Shown here in pieces: positions 57,047-64,000 of a stretch of 64,000 nucleotides of DNA (position 1 is the first letter of the stretch; every line of letters starts with the position of its first letter). The position numbers and the translations under genes are program-made. The stretch is from positions 358,117 through 422,116 of the forward strand of contig JBDRZU010000002.1 in NCBI GenBank assembly GCA_039804105.1. The letters are read 5' to 3'. The notes below the pieces were generated by a model. It made no database searches. It was not told the origin of the DNA and saw only the letters and a program-made list of their open reading frames with translations. The DNA comes from a candidate division WOR-3 bacterium (GTDB lineage Bacteria; Hydrothermota; 32-111).

Positions 57047-57071
57047 AAGAACTCCTAAAATTTAACATTTT

Positions 57072-57100
57072 ATTATAACAAAAAATTGGAAATCTTTCAA
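57072..57100 (-). promoter_or_regulatory. predicted promoter TTGAAA-N17-TATAAT (extended TG) for the gyrA operon
   Basis: Motif on the minus strand. Confidence 0.5.
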
Positions 57101-57123
57101 CTAAAATCATTACATCTTAAAAT

Positions 57124-57150
57124 AAAAATGGGCAGATATTGAATCTGCCC
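57124..57150 (-). terminator. tracrRNA intrinsic terminator
   Basis: GGGCAGAT/ATCTGCCC 8-bp stem plus a U tract on the minus strand. Confidence 0.8.
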
Positions 57151-57197
57151 GCTGAGCCCCGTAGGGCTTAACAGTTCGGCTTTCGCCTTACTGGGAC

Positions 57198-57225
57198 TTG
57201 ACTACAAAAACATTTTAAGTAGAAT
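57198..57225 (+). promoter_or_regulatory. predicted cas9-operon promoter TTGACT-N16-TAGAAT embedded in the anti-repeat
   Basis: Motif ends 46 nt before the cas9 ATG. Confidence 0.6.
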
Positions 57226-57232
57226 TGTAAAT

Positions 57233-57260
57233 ATTTTAACTAATTAAAAATTTTTGTCAA
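57233..57260 (-). promoter_or_regulatory. predicted tracrRNA promoter TTGACA-N16-TAAAAT
   Basis: Predicted start of about 57226 coincides with the anti-repeat 5' end. Confidence 0.7.
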
Positions 57261-57271
57261 GGGGGAATTTT

Positions 57272-60200
57272 ATGAAGTATGTTCTTGGTCTTGATCTTGG
57301 ATACAACTCGATCGGTTGGGCTATGGTTGAACAGGATGAGAATGGTAATCCCATAAAACTTATAAATACAGGGGTTCGTTTGTTTGATCCTTCAGTTGAA
57401 GATATGGAAAAGGATGGAAAGGGCAAAACAAAAAATGTCACAAGAAGAGAAGCAAGGTTAAGAAGAAGACAACTTTTCAGAAAAACAAAGCGACTTGAAA
57501 AACTGTTGAATTTTTTTATAGAAAATAATTTTTTCGAAGATCAAAAAAGCAAGATATATGATTCTTTTGAAAGGGATGAATTTTTATCCAAACTTGATAA
57601 AGAATTGTTAAATCCTTACCTCTTAAGGAGAAAAGGCCTTGACGAAAAACTTGAATTGAAAGAACTCGCAAGGATATTTTACCATATTGCACAACATAGA
57701 GGATTTAAAACAACAAAAAGAGAACTTGCAAAAATGGAAGATAATAGTGAAAAGAAAAAAGAATCAGGTATAGTACAGAGTGAAATAAATTCACTTGCTG
57801 AACAAATAAAACAATCTGGCAGTAGAACCTTGGGAGAATATTTTGCAACACTATTTGAAAAAGGCGAAAGAATCAGAGGAAAACATACAAGTAGAAAAAT
57901 GTATGAAGAAGAGTTTGAGCAAATTTTCAAAAAACAAAAAGAGTTTTATCCTGAAATTCTAACAGATGATTTCAAGAAAAAACTTTATAAACTAATATTC
58001 TTTCAGAGAGAATTGAAAAGCCAGAAAGATAAAGTTGGAGAATGTATTCTTGAAAAAGGGAAAAAAAGAGCACCACTTGCTCTCCTTGATTCTCAAAGAT
58101 TCAGATATATGTGTAAGGTGAACAATTTGAAACTGATCGATAAAGATACTGGAGAAATCACAGAATTAACAAAAGAAGAAAAACAAAAAATTTTCAAAGA
58201 ACTCGAAAACAACGAAAAACTTTCTTTTGATAAAATTAAAAAACTTCTTGGGATAAAAGATAAAAAAAGATTCATTTTCAATATTGAAAAAGGAGGAGAA
58301 AAAGATATCACAGGAAACAGAACAAATGTTAAGATGAAAAAGGTTTTTGATGATTGGGACAATTTTGATGAAGAGAAAAAGAATTCCCTGATAAATGAAA
58401 TTCGAACAATTGTGAAAATCGACGCACTTGAAAGAAGAGGGTTAAAACTTGGATTTTCTCCTGAACAGGCAAAAAAATTTTCACAGGTTGTTTTTGAAGA
58501 TGGATATTTAAGTTATTCCAAAAAGGCGATAGAAAAACTTTTACCATTTTTAAAAGAAGGTGATAAAGAGTATGATGCGATAAAAAAAGTTTACTCTGTT
58601 GAACTTGATAATCCGATACACGAAGAATTCGATTTTCTTCCTGAGATAGAAGATGTTATTCAGGTCAGAAATCCACTCGTTGAAAGAACACTTTCTGAAA
58701 CAAGATATCTTGTAAACTTTTTAATAAAAAAATATGGTAAACCAGAAACAATAAAGATAGAACTTGCGCGAGAGTTGAAACTTTCAAACAAACAAAAAGA
58801 ACAAAAAGTAAAAGAGAACAGAGAAAATCGAAAAAAAAGAGAGGATGCAATTGAGAAAATAAAAAATGATTTGAACATAACAGAACCAACAGAGGATCAG
58901 ATTTTAAGATATCTTCTTGCTGAAGAATGCAGCCGGCATTGTCCTTATACAGGGAAATCTATTAATATGAACGATCTGTTGGGTCCTCATCCTTTATTTG
59001 ATATAGAGCATATAATTCCATTTGATCGTTCTCTTGATAACTCTTTTTTAAACAAAACTCTTTGTTATTCAGAAGAAAATAGAAATATAAAACACAATAA
59101 AACACCGTATGAAGCATATTTTGGAACAGACAAATGGGAAGGAATAATTGAAAGAGTTAAAAAATTCAACGGAAATGCCCGACTTGAAAAATTGAGAAGA
59201 TTTCAGATGACACCTGAACAGGTTGAAAAACATTTTGAAAATTTTTCATCTCAATATTTAAACGATACAAGATACGCTTCAAAAGAAGCAAAAAAATATC
59301 TTGGTTTACTCTATGGTGGAATAAAAGATGATGGAATGGACAAAAACAAGATCAGAAGAGTTATTGCAACTTCTGGCTCTGTTACAGCAACATTAAGAAA
59401 AGCCCTTGGATTGAATACAGTTTTGAATGAAGAAAATTTCAAAATAAGAGATGATCACCGACAGCATGCTATCGATGCTATAACAATAGCGTTAACTGAT
59501 AACTCAACTATCAAAAAAATTTCAGATGCAGCAAAAAAAGAAAAATCTTTAGAAAAACTTTTCAAAAACTATCCTCTTCCTTGGGAAAATTTCAGACAGG
59601 AGGTTCAAGAAAAAATTACAAACCTCCTTGTTTCAAGAAAAGTTAATAAAAAGGTCTCAGGACAGATTCATGATGAAACATATTACAAAAAACCTTTTGA
59701 AGAGAATGGTCAATCTTATACACATAAAAGAGTTAATCTTGAAAATTTAAGTGAAAAAGATATTGAAAATATTGTTGATCCAAAAATAAAAGAGATTATA
59801 AAATCATCCTTGAATGGAGAAGATCCAAAAATCAAATTCAAAGATCCAAAAAATCATCCTTATATCGAACAAAAAGAGGGAAGAAAAGTTCAAATACATA
59901 AGGTTACAATAAAAATTAAATTTGAAACATATAATGAAATCGGACCAGAAAAAGCCAAAAGATATGTTCAATCTGCAGATAGCCATCACATTGAAATCTT
60001 TGAGGACTTACAAACAGGAAAATGGGATGGATATGTTGTTTCTCTCCTTGAGGCATATAAAAGAAAAAAAGATAATCTTCCAATCGTAAACAGAGAATTT
60101 GGAGAGAACAAAAAATTCTTATTTTCACTTGCAAAAGGAGAGATCATTGAACTTGACACTGAAGATGGGAAAAGAGAATTGTTTGTGGTGCGAAGAATAG

Positions 60201-60370
60201 CAGGTAACAATAAACAATTATTATTTTCTAAAATCAATGATGCAAGGAAATCTGATGAAATTAATAAAAATTCAAAAGGTTTGACTGCTGTTCCATCTGG
60301 ACTAAAAGAAAGAAATTGTAGAAAAGTTGTTATAAACATTCTTGGAGAAAAACATTACGCAAATGATTGA
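57272..60370 (+). CDS. cas9: type II-C Cas9, 1032 aa
   Basis: RuvC-I GLDLGYNSIGWA, Arg-rich bridge helix, IELARE, HNH DIEHIIPF...N, RuvC-III HAIDA. Confidence 0.97.
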   Translation: MKYVLGLDLGYNSIGWAMVEQDENGNPIKLINTGVRLFDPSVEDMEKDGKGKTKNVTRREARLRRRQLFRKTKRLEKLLNFFIENNFFEDQKSKIYDSFERDEFLSKLDKELLNPYLLRRKGLDEKLELKELARIFYHIAQHRGFKTTKRELAKMEDNSEKKKESGIVQSEINSLAEQIKQSGSRTLGEYFATLFEKGERIRGKHTSRKMYEEEFEQIFKKQKEFYPEILTDDFKKKLYKLIFFQRELKSQKDKVGECILEKGKKRAPLALLDSQRFRYMCKVNNLKLIDKDTGEITELTKEEKQKIFKELENNEKLSFDKIKKLLGIKDKKRFIFNIEKGGEKDITGNRTNVKMKKVFDDWDNFDEEKKNSLINEIRTIVKIDALERRGLKLGFSPEQAKKFSQVVFEDGYLSYSKKAIEKLLPFLKEGDKEYDAIKKVYSVELDNPIHEEFDFLPEIEDVIQVRNPLVERTLSETRYLVNFLIKKYGKPETIKIELARELKLSNKQKEQKVKENRENRKKREDAIEKIKNDLNITEPTEDQILRYLLAEECSRHCPYTGKSINMNDLLGPHPLFDIEHIIPFDRSLDNSFLNKTLCYSEENRNIKHNKTPYEAYFGTDKWEGIIERVKKFNGNARLEKLRRFQMTPEQVEKHFENFSSQYLNDTRYASKEAKKYLGLLYGGIKDDGMDKNKIRRVIATSGSVTATLRKALGLNTVLNEENFKIRDDHRQHAIDAITIALTDNSTIKKISDAAKKEKSLEKLFKNYPLPWENFRQEVQEKITNLLVSRKVNKKVSGQIHDETYYKKPFEENGQSYTHKRVNLENLSEKDIENIVDPKIKEIIKSSLNGEDPKIKFKDPKNHPYIEQKEGRKVQIHKVTIKIKFETYNEIGPEKAKRYVQSADSHHIEIFEDLQTGKWDGYVVSLLEAYKRKKDNLPIVNREFGENKKFLFSLAKGEIIELDTEDGKRELFVVRRIAGNNKQLLFSKINDARKSDEINKNSKGLTAVPSGLKERNCRKVVINILGEKHYAND

Positions 60371-61283
60371 AAAAATAATTGAGATTTCAGAAGGACCTGT
60401 AAAACTTTCTTCAGAATATGAACAACTTATAGTTACAAAAAATGGAACAGAAATTTTAAAAACTCCTTTGAATGAAATTGCTGTTCTTCTGATTTCAACA
60501 CCTTTTGCTTCAATATCAACAAATGTAATTTCTTTGATAACAAAAAATAAAGGGATGATTATTATATGTGATCAATTTTATCTACCTGTTGGTGTTTTTT
60601 TACCTTATGAACTCAATTATATTCAATATGAAAGAATTCAAAAACAGATTAATGCTTCTTTACCATTAAAAAAACAACTCTGGAAACAGATTATTTCCGA
60701 GAAAATAAATTCTCAAGCATCTGTTTTAAAAAAATTAAAAGGGAGCGATTTTGGGCTTTATTATATATCTGAAAAAGTTCAATCTGGTGATTCAACAAAT
60801 CTTGAAGCATATTCCTCAAAAATTTACTGGAAAGAACTTTTTGGAGAAAAATTTAAACGAGATAAAGATTTACCTGGTGTTAATTCTATTTTAAATTATG
60901 GATATACAATTTTAAGAGCAATGACAGCACGAGCGGTTTGTTGTTCAGGTTTAAACCCAACTCTTGGGATATTTCATCATAATAAATATAATTCATTCTG
61001 TCTTGCAGATGATCTGATGGAACCATATAGACCCATAGTTGATGAGTTAACTTATAGATTGATCATCCAATCGGGAATTCAACTTTTTTTAACAAAAGAG
61101 TTAAAAAAAGAAATCATTGAACATCTTTTGAATAAGAAATTTGAAGTTAAAAAAGAAAAGTTTTCACTGAATGAATCGTTGTTTAAACTTTCATCATCAC
61201 TTGTGAATGTTTATACAGGTAAAGAAAAAAAGTTAAATATTCCAACTCCTTATGAAAAGGAATACAACTCCAACACAAAATAA
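60363..61283 (+). CDS. cas1: CRISPR-associated endonuclease Cas1
   Basis: NLEA..S..YW, NSILNYGY.ILR, LGIFH and LADDLMEPYRP motifs. Confidence 0.95.
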   Translation: MIEKIIEISEGPVKLSSEYEQLIVTKNGTEILKTPLNEIAVLLISTPFASISTNVISLITKNKGMIIICDQFYLPVGVFLPYELNYIQYERIQKQINASLPLKKQLWKQIISEKINSQASVLKKLKGSDFGLYYISEKVQSGDSTNLEAYSSKIYWKELFGEKFKRDKDLPGVNSILNYGYTILRAMTARAVCCSGLNPTLGIFHHNKYNSFCLADDLMEPYRPIVDELTYRLIIQSGIQLFLTKELKKEIIEHLLNKKFEVKKEKFSLNESLFKLSSSLVNVYTGKEKKLNIPTPYEKEYNSNTK

Positions 61284-61602
61284 CAGATACCATTCGATGT
61301 GGATTTTAGCACTTTTCGATTTACCAACATTAACAAAAGAGGATAGAAAAAATTACAGGGATTTCAGAAAAGAACTTTTAAAATCTGGTTTTGAACAATT
61401 ACAATTTTCTGTGTATGCAAGATATGTTGGTGATGAAAAAAGAGCAGATACTTTTAAAAACAAAATAAAATCGGTTGTTCCTCCAAAAGGTGAAGTCAGA
61501 ATAATCTGTTTAACAGATATCCAATTTGGAAAGATGGAAGTGTATTACCAAAATTCCAAGAAAAAACCTGAAAAGAAACTTGAACAACTTCTACTTTTTT
61601 AA
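61252..61602 (+). CDS. cas2: CRISPR-associated Cas2
   Basis: MWILALFDLP, FRKELLKSGF..LQFSVY and EQLLLF motifs; no csn2 or cas4, so subtype II-C. Confidence 0.95.
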   Translation: MKRNTTPTQNNRYHSMWILALFDLPTLTKEDRKNYRDFRKELLKSGFEQLQFSVYARYVGDEKRADTFKNKIKSVVPPKGEVRIICLTDIQFGKMEVYYQNSKKKPEKKLEQLLLF

Positions 61603-61611
61603 TCCAATTTT

Positions 61612-61649
61612 AACAATAAACCCTCTCTTTGTGTTAACTTAAGAGAGGG
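61612..61649 (-). terminator. predicted terminator for minus-strand array transcripts, inside the 50-bp cas2-array spacer (putative leader)
   Basis: CCCTCTCTT/AAGAGAGGG 9-bp stem followed on the minus strand by UUUAUUGUU. Confidence 0.65.
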
Positions 61650-61652
61650 TCC

Positions 61653-63866
61653 ATTCTACTTGAAATGTTTTTGTGGTCAAGCCCCAGCGTTGTAGGTATG
61701 CAGGGAGCCAGCCCTTTTATTCTACTTGAAATGTTTTTGTGGTCAAGCCCCAGCTATCTTTTCTTTTCTGTGGTGGCGTTATGAATTCTACTTGAAATGT
61801 TTTTGTGGTCAAGCCCCAGCTTTAGCGCGAATGTTGTTTTACCAAGCCCTATTCTACTTGAAATGTTTTTGTGGTCAAGCCCCAGCTTACTAATACAATT
61901 TCCACCAATTCTTCAATTCTACTTGAAATGTTTTTGTGGTCAAGCCCCAGCACATCGTCAGACCACAAGGCGTCCGTTATATTCTACTTGAAATGTTTTT
62001 GTGGTCAAGCCCCAGCAACAAGTTCCAGAGTTTAACATAAAGAATGATTCTACTTGAAATGTTTTTGTGGTCAAGCCCCAGCACCTCGTCAGACCACAAG
62101 GCGTCCGTTATAATTCTACTTGAAATGTTTTTGTGGTCAAGCCCCAGCGAAGTTAAAAGAATTCAAAACGAATTTAAGATTCTACTTGAAATGTTTTTGT
62201 GGTCAAGCCCCAGCATACAACAATTGATAAACAAGAATTTAATAGATTCTACTTGAAATGTTTTTGTGGTCAAGCCCCAGCAAAAAGTTTCATAATAACA
62301 ATCAAAAAGGGATTCTACTTGAAATGTTTTTGTGGTCAAGCCCCAGCAAGCTTTCTATGACGAGAACGATGTGTTCTATTCTACTTGAAATGTTTTTGTG
62401 GTCAAGCCCCAGCATAATCAACCCACACAACACCATTCTCTAAATTCTACTTGAAATGTTTTTGTGGTCAAGCCCCAGCAAACATTTTACAATATATTAT
62501 AAAGAGAGGATTCTACTTGAAATGTTTTTGTGGTCAAGCCCCAGCCTCTTTTTTGGTTTTAGTATCCTCTTTTTCATTCTACTTGAAATGTTTTTGTGGT
62601 CAAGCCCCAGCTTATCTGTGTAATCGTCCGGGAAATCCGCATATTCTACTTGAAATGTTTTTGTGGTCAAGCCCCAGCATCATAATACGCTGGTTCTCCA
62701 CGAAAAGCATTCTACTTGAAATGTTTTTGTGGTCAAGCCCCAGCAGCAGTAAACGCTCTGTTAAGAATATTAGCATTCTACTTGAAATGTTTTTGTGGTC
62801 AAGCCCCAGCATATCCTCTGGTATATTTCTTATAAAATATATTCTACTTGAAATGTTTTTGTGGTCAAGCCCCAGCCTGCAAAGTTTAAAACAATTTAAA
62901 GATATTATTCTACTTGAAATGTTTTTGTGGTCAAGCCCCAGCTTAAAAAACTATCATAATGCAATATTGTCCATTCTACTTGAAATGTTTTTGTGGTCAA
63001 GCCCCAGCACAAATACTTCATCATTGTTACAAAATCTTATTCTACTTGAAATGTTTTTGTGGTCAAGCCCCAGCGGCTTCTATATCCATTATATATATAT
63101 TTTTATTCTACTTGAAATGTTTTTGTGGTCAAGCCCCAGCGTCATAATATGCCGGCTCATTGAGGAATGCATTCTACTTGAAATGTTTTTGTGGTCAAGC
63201 CCCAGCCAAATATTTCTTTTTTACAAAGGAAAACTTATTCTACTTGAAATGTTTTTGTGGTCAAGCCCCAGCTTAAAAAACTATCATAATGCAATATTGT
63301 CCATTCTACTTGAAATGTTTTTGTGGTCAAGCCCCAGCATTGTATCGTTGTAAATATGTAGATATCTAATTCTACTTGAAATGTTTTTGTGGTCAAGCCC
63401 CAGCAAGAAGATAAACCAGTGGATTCTACTTTAAATTCTACTTGAAATGTTTTTGTGGTCAAGCCCCAGCTTAAAAGTAGCGTAAACAAAACCAGCAGAA
63501 ATTCTACTTGAAATGTTTTTGTGGTCAAGCCCCAGCGGAGCGAGTACATAGAGGGAACCATTTGTAATTCTACTTGAAATGTTTTTGTGGTCAAGCCCCA
63601 GCTGATGGGACAAAAGCACTTTATCAGAGAATATTCTACTTGAAATGTTTTTGTGGTCAAGCCCCAGCTCTTTATTTGCAATTGAAGTAAAATCATTTAT
63701 TCTACTTGAAATGTTTTTGTGGTCAAGCCCCAGCCCTTCCTGTGGCAATAAAAATACATTAGTAATTCTACTTGAAATGTTTTTGTGGTCAAGCCCCAGC
63801 TTATTAAAGCATTACCACACCCCACAACAAATTCTACTTGAAATGTTTTTGTGGTCAAGCCCCAGT
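61653..63866 (-). CRISPR. CRISPR array: 34 repeats of 36 bp (crRNA sense GCTGGGGCTTGACCACAAAAACATTTCAAGTAGAAT) and 33 spacers of 29-31 bp
   Basis: Counted directly; the last repeat (63831-63866) has a terminal C>T variant; orientation inferred from tracrRNA complementarity. Confidence 0.98.
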
Positions 63867-64000
63867 AAATATAACTACTGGGGACGGTGCTTGACTTTTT
63901 GACATTTTTCGTAACTATATTTTTATACGAGATTTAAACTTAATATAAATTTTTAGTTTTTAAATTTTTTCAAAACTAAAAAATAACATTTTTTATTTAA

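What the first reader, a model, noticed from the sequence alone, without database searches (positions are those of the whole stretch)
61653..63866. Each CRISPR repeat is a complete -35/-10 promoter tuned to the host's 16-bp architecture
Seen: the crRNA-sense repeat is GCTGGGGC-TTGACC-ACAAAAACATTTCAAG (16 nt)-TAGAAT, with the -10 at the last six bases and no extended TG. Established: Neisseria and Campylobacter II-C repeats carry an extended -10 element that starts transcription within each spacer. Here a bipartite promoter occupies 28 of 36 bp and matches the spacing of the host's housekeeping promoters. Inference: 34 tandem promoters generate about 23-24-nt guides with unprocessed 5' ends, and repeat sequence is co-constrained by the host sigma, tracr pairing and the cas9 promoter.
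Basis: partly seen in the sequence, partly recalled or inferred. Interest (0 to 1): 0.75.

Follow-up and report, generated by a model that had tools for sequence, protein, structure and literature searches.

The report
CRISPR repeats carrying complete two-box promoters
Every repeat of this Cas9 CRISPR array contains both boxes of a standard bacterial promoter at the short 16-base spacing that this host's own predicted promoters favour, so each guide RNA is likely transcribed on its own, but the same spacing occurs in many Cas9 systems whose hosts lean to 17 bases, so it was likely inherited rather than tuned to this host.

Summary
Observation confirmed. A type II-C array has 34 repeats (33 identical) with TTGACC-16 nt-TAGAAT at repeat positions 9-14 and 31-36 and no extended TG. 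The host's predicted promoters favour 16 bp: 89 intergenic sites versus 29 at 17 bp. This scan noted that bias before, on other DNA of this genome.

"Tuned to the host" is not supported. A -35-like box at this same register occurs in 11 of 28 other Cas1-selected II-C repeat clusters (2 at 17 bp; shuffle mean 1.0). Of 15 testable hosts with that register, 10 lean to 17 bp. The repeat is a below-median host promoter (12th percentile).

Best reading: an inherited two-box repeat promoter that suits this host and likely fires in every repeat, giving guides of about 24-26 nt. The tracrRNA anti-repeat, read on the other strand, is the only promoter-like site before cas9; the scan noted this layout in another genome. 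No RNA data exist here. This is a two-box variant of the known Neisseria/Campylobacter mechanism; I found it described only as a putative TTG in Flavobacterium.

The parts
61653..63866 (-). CRISPR array, 34 repeats of 36 nt and 33 spacers, antisense to the cas genes
   Evidence: orientation from tracrRNA pairing
63765..63792 (-). Example repeat promoter (repeat 2): -35 TTGACC at 63792-63787, 16 nt, -10 TAGAAT at 63770-63765; same in all 34 repeats
   Evidence: host-matrix score 11.5 bits, 12th percentile of 111 host sites
61620..61652 (-). Hairpin right after the last repeat; likely array terminator, within the cas2-side leader region; present in all 5 genus loci
   Evidence: fold z -5.0; conservation; function inferred
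57120..57226 (-). Predicted tracrRNA: full 36-nt anti-repeat at its 5' end, then hairpins and a terminator (stem 57150-57130)
57233..57260 (-). Predicted tracrRNA promoter, TTGACA-16-TAAAAT, lying in the predicted cas9 5' leader
   Evidence: (79th percentile)
57198..57225 (+). Anti-repeat read on the plus strand, TTGACT-16-TAGAAT, ending 46 nt before the cas9 ATG; predicted cas9-cas1-cas2 promoter
   Evidence: only host-type site scoring 5 bits or more on the plus strand of 57047-57271; both boxes kept in 5 of 5 genus loci
57272..60370 (+). cas9 (1032 aa from the ATG at 57272)
   Evidence: TIGR01865, E 1.6e-207
60342..61283 (+). cas1 (type II, NMENI family)
   Evidence: TIGR03639, E 4e-83, over cut-off
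61252..61602 (+). cas2
   Evidence: TIGR01573, E 1.2e-17

Best explanation
Each repeat of this type II-C array likely acts as a two-box housekeeping promoter (-35 plus -10, no extended TG) that would start a guide RNA 5-7 nt into the next spacer, and its 16-bp spacing is likely an inherited feature of a broad II-C repeat lineage that happens to fit this host, not an adaptation to it. Shown: the boxes, their spacing, the host's 16-bp bias among predicted promoters, the wide spread of the register, and tracrRNA complementarity. Inferred: initiation in each spacer gives unprocessed 5' ends and guides of about 24-26 nt; tracrRNA plus RNase III trims the 3' ends; and the anti-repeat copy of the same promoter drives cas9-cas1-cas2 while overlapping the tracrRNA promoter.
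For: Boxes and spacing; chance 0.005-0.016. Host sites are mostly two-box, with TG in only 16 of 113 sites at 16 bp, so a TG-less TAGAAT probably needs a -35 (inference). No other host-type site lies on either strand of the array, in the 134 nt upstream, or in 400 nt upstream in relative G001. Both boxes persist in repeat and anti-repeat of 5 of 5 genus loci; the only changes inside the boxes are at -35 position 6 and -10 position 3, the loosest positions of the host matrix. Inherited register: 11 of 28 other Cas1-selected clusters match 4 of 6 or better at 16 bp versus 1, 2 and 0 at 15, 17 and 18 (shuffle mean 1.0, max 6 in 5000); 13 of 16 usable pattern-selected clusters sit at 16; all TTG-type rows lie in one 45-row part of the Cas1 tree (support 91/75, not starred). 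Seven spirochaete genomes with TTGACY-16-TAWAAT repeats have 61 host sites at 16 versus 118 at 17. In 12 of 15 outside loci the anti-repeat does not keep the TTG, so pairing does not explain it. An RNase III match is present (E 2.9e-47). Repeat-driven initiation is established in C. jejuni and N. meningitidis (PMC3656092, PMC12477760).
Against: No transcript data. The repeat scores only at the 12th percentile of host sites. T9 and G11 are also kept in 11 of 13 distinct 47-nt II-C repeats, where they cannot be a -35 for a terminal -10, so part of the motif may be kept for another reason. The expected trade-off between -35 and extended TG was not seen (Fisher p 0.71). Of 5 variable repeat columns in the genus, 2 fall inside the boxes, too few to test. 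Clusters are kin, not independent; the TTG-at-9 state needs 8 changes on the tree. Host counts outside the genus are small: only 5 of the 10 hosts leaning to 17 are individually significant, and 4 of 15 lean to 16. The RNase III match is just under the family cut-off (160.8 versus 166.25 bits).
Confidence: 0.58

Rival explanations
1. One reading: selection in this lineage adjusted the repeat promoter to the host's 16-bp sigma architecture.
For: The genus is 16-biased in 5 of 5 genomes (47:12, 39:11, 45:12, 46:16, 52:21). Three relatives carry TTGACT and one also TATAAT, scoring up to the 92nd percentile. The nearest Cas1 relatives have poorer -35 boxes (TTGTGG, TTGAAG, TTGCAG), so the AC may have been improved here. 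One 17-register repeat sits in a host with 22 sites at 17 versus 4 at 16 (G647).
Against: The register is the lineage default, also in 17-leaning hosts (10 of 15), including the host of the nearest Cas1 relative (G432, 61:119). The G647 bias vanishes with the stricter pattern (3:4). This repeat uses rare host variants of both boxes.
Confidence: 0.15
2. The TTGAC is incidental: positions 9-13 are kept for Cas9 binding of the repeat:anti-repeat duplex or for Cas1-Cas2 recognition of the repeat, and transcription depends on the -10 alone or is weak.
For: T9 and G11 persist in 47-nt repeats that lack a terminal -10. No TG versus -35 trade-off. The register does not follow the host. Here CTTGA and TCAAG also form a short internal palindrome (though z 0.18).
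Against: No 47-nt repeat has A at position 12 (0 of 13) whereas 7 of 12 TTG-at-9 36-nt clusters do. The host's sites are mostly two-box. The anti-repeat usually does not pair with these bases.
Confidence: 0.2
3. The array is transcribed as one precursor from a distal promoter and guides get both ends by processing, as in type II-A.
For: Only 134 nt upstream are available here because the contig ends. The dispersed repeat upstream can pair with repeat 1 (z -4.0), as expected if read-through RNA exists.
Against: No host-type site within 134 nt here or 400 nt in G001. II-C architecture with a terminal -10, as in systems with shown internal starts.
Confidence: 0.07

Closest known systems
Neisseria meningitidis and Campylobacter jejuni type II-C repeat-embedded promoters (Dugar 2013, PMC3656092, passages read; Zhang 2013 not held, seen only through PMC5965381, PMC12477760 and PMC7038990 passages)
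   Same: cas9-cas1-cas2 only, array antisense to the cas genes, 36-nt repeat ending in a -10 box, tracrRNA and RNase III for 3' ends, starts expected a few nt into each spacer.
   Different: Those are described as extended -10 elements; here there is no TG, and a 5-of-6 -35 box sits 16 bp upstream. Activity is shown there and untested here.
Clostridium cellulolyticum H10 type II-C (PMC7038990, passages read)
   Same: Array transcribed opposite to the cas genes; repeat end resembles a promoter; crRNAs carry 23-26 nt of spacer in E. coli.
   Different: Extended -10 class; the passages read mention no -35.
Flavobacterium columnare and F. psychrophilum II-C repeats with a putative TTG promoter motif (PMC8092290, PMC10309648; passages read)
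   Same: An upstream TTG in a II-C repeat was proposed as a promoter element (33-35 bp before each spacer), the closest precedent found for a -35-like element in repeats.
   Different: Proposed as a Flavobacterium -33 element in repeats said to lack the usual -10 sequence, supported by eight reads and not tested by mutation; no two-box 16-bp geometry described.
Canonical sigma70 promoter, TTGACA-17-TATAAT (consensus as used by the scan tool; otherwise recalled)
   Same: Both boxes match at 5 of 6.
   Different: Spacer 16 bp, as in about three quarters of this host's predicted promoters.

Membership tests
Type II-C CRISPR-Cas9 | cas9, cas1, cas2 with no csn2 or cas4 in the operon | tested here: met
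   the array ends 50 nt from the cas2 stop, leaving no room for another gene
Type II-C CRISPR-Cas9 | tracrRNA with anti-repeat complementary to the crRNA repeat | tested here: met
   34 of 36 repeat positions paired, -47.9 kcal/mol; 3' hairpins and terminator
Type II-C CRISPR-Cas9 | Array transcribed opposite to the cas genes | tested here: met
   inferred from tracrRNA strand and promoter orientation; rule stated in PMC6737040; no RNA data
Neisseria/Campylobacter-type repeat promoter | [quoted passage not shown] | tested here: met
   TAGAAT at positions 31-36 in 34 of 34 repeats
Neisseria/Campylobacter-type repeat promoter | Extended -10 (TG one base before the hexamer) | tested here: not met
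   AAG precedes the hexamer
Neisseria/Campylobacter-type repeat promoter | Primary 5' ends inside each spacer | not testable with these tools
   no RNA run holding the locus was listed; the one listed run does not cover it
Host housekeeping promoter class | TTGAC-type -35 and TAnAAT -10 at 16 bp | tested here: met
   host 89 sites at 16 versus 29 at 17; repeat within the host score range but at the 12th percentile
   10 of 15 hosts with 16-register repeats have more sites at 17; small counts, related genomes

The most novel reading that the evidence does not exclude
A large branch of type II-C systems uses a second, largely undescribed class of repeat promoter: a two-box element locked at 16 bp by the 36-nt repeat. 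Guide output, and so the success of a horizontally moved Cas9 system, would then depend on the recipient's sigma spacing preference. This genus, where the same sequence would also drive cas9 through the anti-repeat, would be a case of ideal fit (system in 5 of 5 genus genomes and 0 of 266 other genomes of the phylum searched).
Probability: 0.25. Interest if true: 0.65.

Novelty: new variant of a known kind. Interest (0 to 1): 0.42.

Why it matters
Repeat-embedded promoters are known for II-C, but as extended -10 elements. If the -35 works, the picture covers only one branch: repeats from Akkermansia, Treponema, Opitutales, Desulfonatronum, Haematospirillum and this lineage carry a -35-like box at a fixed 16-bp register. 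That would affect how guide expression is predicted when II-C arrays move between hosts or into E. coli, and gives a simple orientation signal for such arrays. This host is a good test case, since its predicted promoters favour 16 bp and the same sequence may drive both guides and cas9. The stronger claim of host-specific tuning does not hold up.

Tried and rejected
RNA evidence: no RNA holder was listed; the one listed run matched only two stretches of 22 and 27 nt of one unrelated contig, so it says nothing on expression. Protospacers: no convincing match in 50,697 phage records or in the host genome. Spacer selection for a start purine: none seen in 70 distinct genus spacers; purine share at nt 5-8 was 0.49, 0.50, 0.30, 0.49. 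Trade-off of -35 against extended TG: not seen (p 0.71). Shared spacers among G000, G001 and G003: none, so acquisition polarity was not tested. Host spacing from five plasmid records was at background level; five Acidobacteriota genomes gave counts too small or inconsistent. Akkermansia and other metagenome records were not held, so their host spacing is untested. The genome-contig scan with Cas9 gave only 2 loci. The viral pattern scan was mostly chance: only 3 of its 31 loci gave an array call and 1 of those was a clear II-C-type array. The worry that the dispersed repeat or the array inflates the host's 16-bp peak was rejected by masking. Literature: searches returned 0 papers; some searches returned listings, and none of the passages I read describes a two-box repeat promoter. 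Zhang 2013 was not held, no supplements were read, and most subscription papers are not searched, so a prior mention cannot be excluded.

Full report
Locus. The finding is the array of a compact type II-C system: tracrRNA (minus strand, about 57226-57120), cas9 (57272-60370), cas1 and cas2 on the plus strand, then 34 repeats on the minus strand ending 134 nt from the contig end. The genome is 1.81 Mb at 30% G+C. A 77% identical Cas1 is named from candidate division TA06 bacterium 32_111. This Cas1 family was found in 5 of 271 genomes of the phylum, all in this genus, which suggests one horizontal acquisition (inference).

The observation. The repeat is GCTGGGGC-TTGACC-16 nt-TAGAAT with no TG before the -10, identical in 33 of 34 copies. 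The minus strand is crRNA sense: the tracrRNA gene has its own promoter and terminator and pairs with that strand at 34 of 36 positions. A -35 match this good arises in 0.5% of shuffles at 16 bp and 1.6% at 16-18 bp.

The host. In 470 upstream regions, two-box sites numbered 135 at 16 bp and 46 at 17 against shuffle means of 5-6. After masking the CRISPR locus and a 38-copy dispersed repeat the intergenic counts were 89 and 29, with at most 7 at other spacings. All five genus genomes agree. Two earlier notes of this scan report the same bias from other pieces of this genome. Among 113 host sites at 16 bp, TG occurs in 16, TTGACC in 3 and TAGAAT in 4. The repeat scores at the 12th percentile of 111 host sites, the anti-repeat at the 39th, the tracrRNA promoter at the 79th, and the repeat of relative G004 at the 92nd. 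So the repeat fits the host class but is not optimised.

Is the spacing tuned? I collected 94 loci by Cas1, without regard to the repeat: 30 of 38 spirochaete matches, 43 viral contigs, 12 Acidobacteriota and 9 of 16 plasmid hits. No array was found in 21. I dropped 26 more: 17 with repeats of the 47-nt class, 7 with a distant II-A-like array, 1 with the array upstream and 1 sense-oriented. The other 47 plus the window form 29 clusters. TTG starts at position 9 in 13 clusters and at position 8 in 2. Without the window, 11 of 28 match TTGACA at 4 of 6 or better at 16 bp, against 1, 2 and 0 at 15, 17 and 18 bp and a shuffle mean of 1.0. Two were not usable; of 16, 13 were at 16 bp, 2 at 17 and 1 at 18. 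Named hosts of 16-register repeats are Treponema, Akkermansia, Opitutales, Ca. Hydrogenedens and Desulfonatronum, Haematospirillum and Pigmentibacter. On a 57-row Cas1 tree all TTG-type rows fall in one 45-row group (91/75, not starred), while most repeats with only an extended -10 fall outside it. The TTG-at-9 state needs 8 changes, so the clusters are not independent.

Host test. Using TTGACA only, which excludes the arrays, 15 outside genomes with TTG-at-9 repeats gave more sites at 17 bp in 10, more at 16 in 4 and one tie; 5 of the 10 and 1 of the 4 are individually significant. Seven spirochaetes whose repeats read TTGACY-16-TAWAAT total 61 versus 118. The host of the nearest Cas1 relative has 61 versus 119. 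One 17-register repeat lies in a host with 22 versus 4 in favour of 17 by a wider pattern but 4 versus 3 by the strict one. The register is therefore best read as inherited. Local improvement of the box in this genus remains possible, as its nearest relatives have weaker boxes.

Is the -35 functional? For: no other host-type site lies in or just upstream of the array. The host rarely uses TG. Both boxes persist in repeat and anti-repeat of 5 of 5 genus loci, and changes inside the boxes hit only their loosest positions. In 12 of 15 comparable outside loci the anti-repeat does not keep the TTG, so base pairing does not explain it (15 counts the loci with alignment score 39.5 or more and a TTG- or TxG-type repeat). 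Against: T9 and G11 are also kept in 11 of 13 distinct 47-nt repeats that have no terminal -10, though none has A12; there is no trade-off with TG (p 0.71); and there is no RNA evidence.

Mechanism (inferred). Holoenzyme binds each repeat and starts 5-7 nt into the next spacer, by analogy with C. jejuni (position five; PMC3656092) and N. meningitidis (sixth nt; PMC12477760), giving about 24-26 nt guides with triphosphate ends. Transcripts run on to the hairpin after the last repeat. tracrRNA and RNase III (just under cut-off) would set the 3' ends. The anti-repeat read on the plus strand is the only host-type site before cas9, whose upstream neighbour is divergent. Its -10 lies 7-8 nt from the tracrRNA -10 in all five genus loci, so each promoter sits in the other's transcribed region and the two probably compete. 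Outside the genus both boxes survive in only 2 of 15 anti-repeats, so this is a local arrangement; an earlier scan note reached a similar view for another genome.

Known versus new. Repeat-embedded II-C promoters are established as extended -10 elements (passages of PMC5965381, PMC3656092, PMC7038990, PMC12477760). A TTG motif in Flavobacterium repeats was proposed as a -33 element without a test (PMC8092290, PMC10309648). Passages of PMC10281378, PMC5006608, PMC6737040, PMC3737331, PMC7708072 and bioRxiv 10.64898/2026.06.01.729453 showed no -35 in repeats. Searches were empty. Zhang 2013 was not available and no supplements were read. Interest 0.42.

Noticed in passing
window 63881-63909 (+) and genome-wide: A 29-nt dispersed repeat holding two TTGAC words has 38 copies in the genome. 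One copy abuts the distal end of the array here and in G001; read on the minus strand it can pair with repeat 1 (z -4.0), which could block an extraneous guide from read-through RNA.
   Followed up: partly
phylum genomes G032, G046, G036, G023 and others: Promoter spacer preference flips within the phylum: G032 has 313 sites at 16 versus 29 at 17, G046 6 versus 302, G036 12 versus 216, family f8 1-7 versus 36-54. The listed sites in G032 and G046 are dispersed, not arrays. Already noted by earlier scan reports.
   Followed up: partly
window spacers 9 and 14; 27 and 29: Spacer 9 is duplicated as spacer 14; spacers 27 and 29 are nearly identical with a one-base shift.
   Followed up: no
L211, L212, L219, L228, L246 and related loci: 6 of 13 distinct 47-nt II-C repeats contain TAnnTTTG at positions 24-25, the Bacteroidetes promoter motif named in PMC10309648, on the strand opposite the cas genes; possibly a third class of repeat promoter.
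   Followed up: partly
L208 and L209, upstream of cas9: The anti-repeat keeps both boxes but with a one-base insertion, giving 17 bp, while the repeat has 16 bp.
   Followed up: no
G001:C3:171676-174770: cas9 of the closest relative reads in two frames with stops, so it appears broken; an earlier scan note says the same.
   Followed up: no
window 57072-57100 (-): The promoter-like site of the small upstream gene is of the minority type, 17 bp with an extended TG.
   Followed up: no
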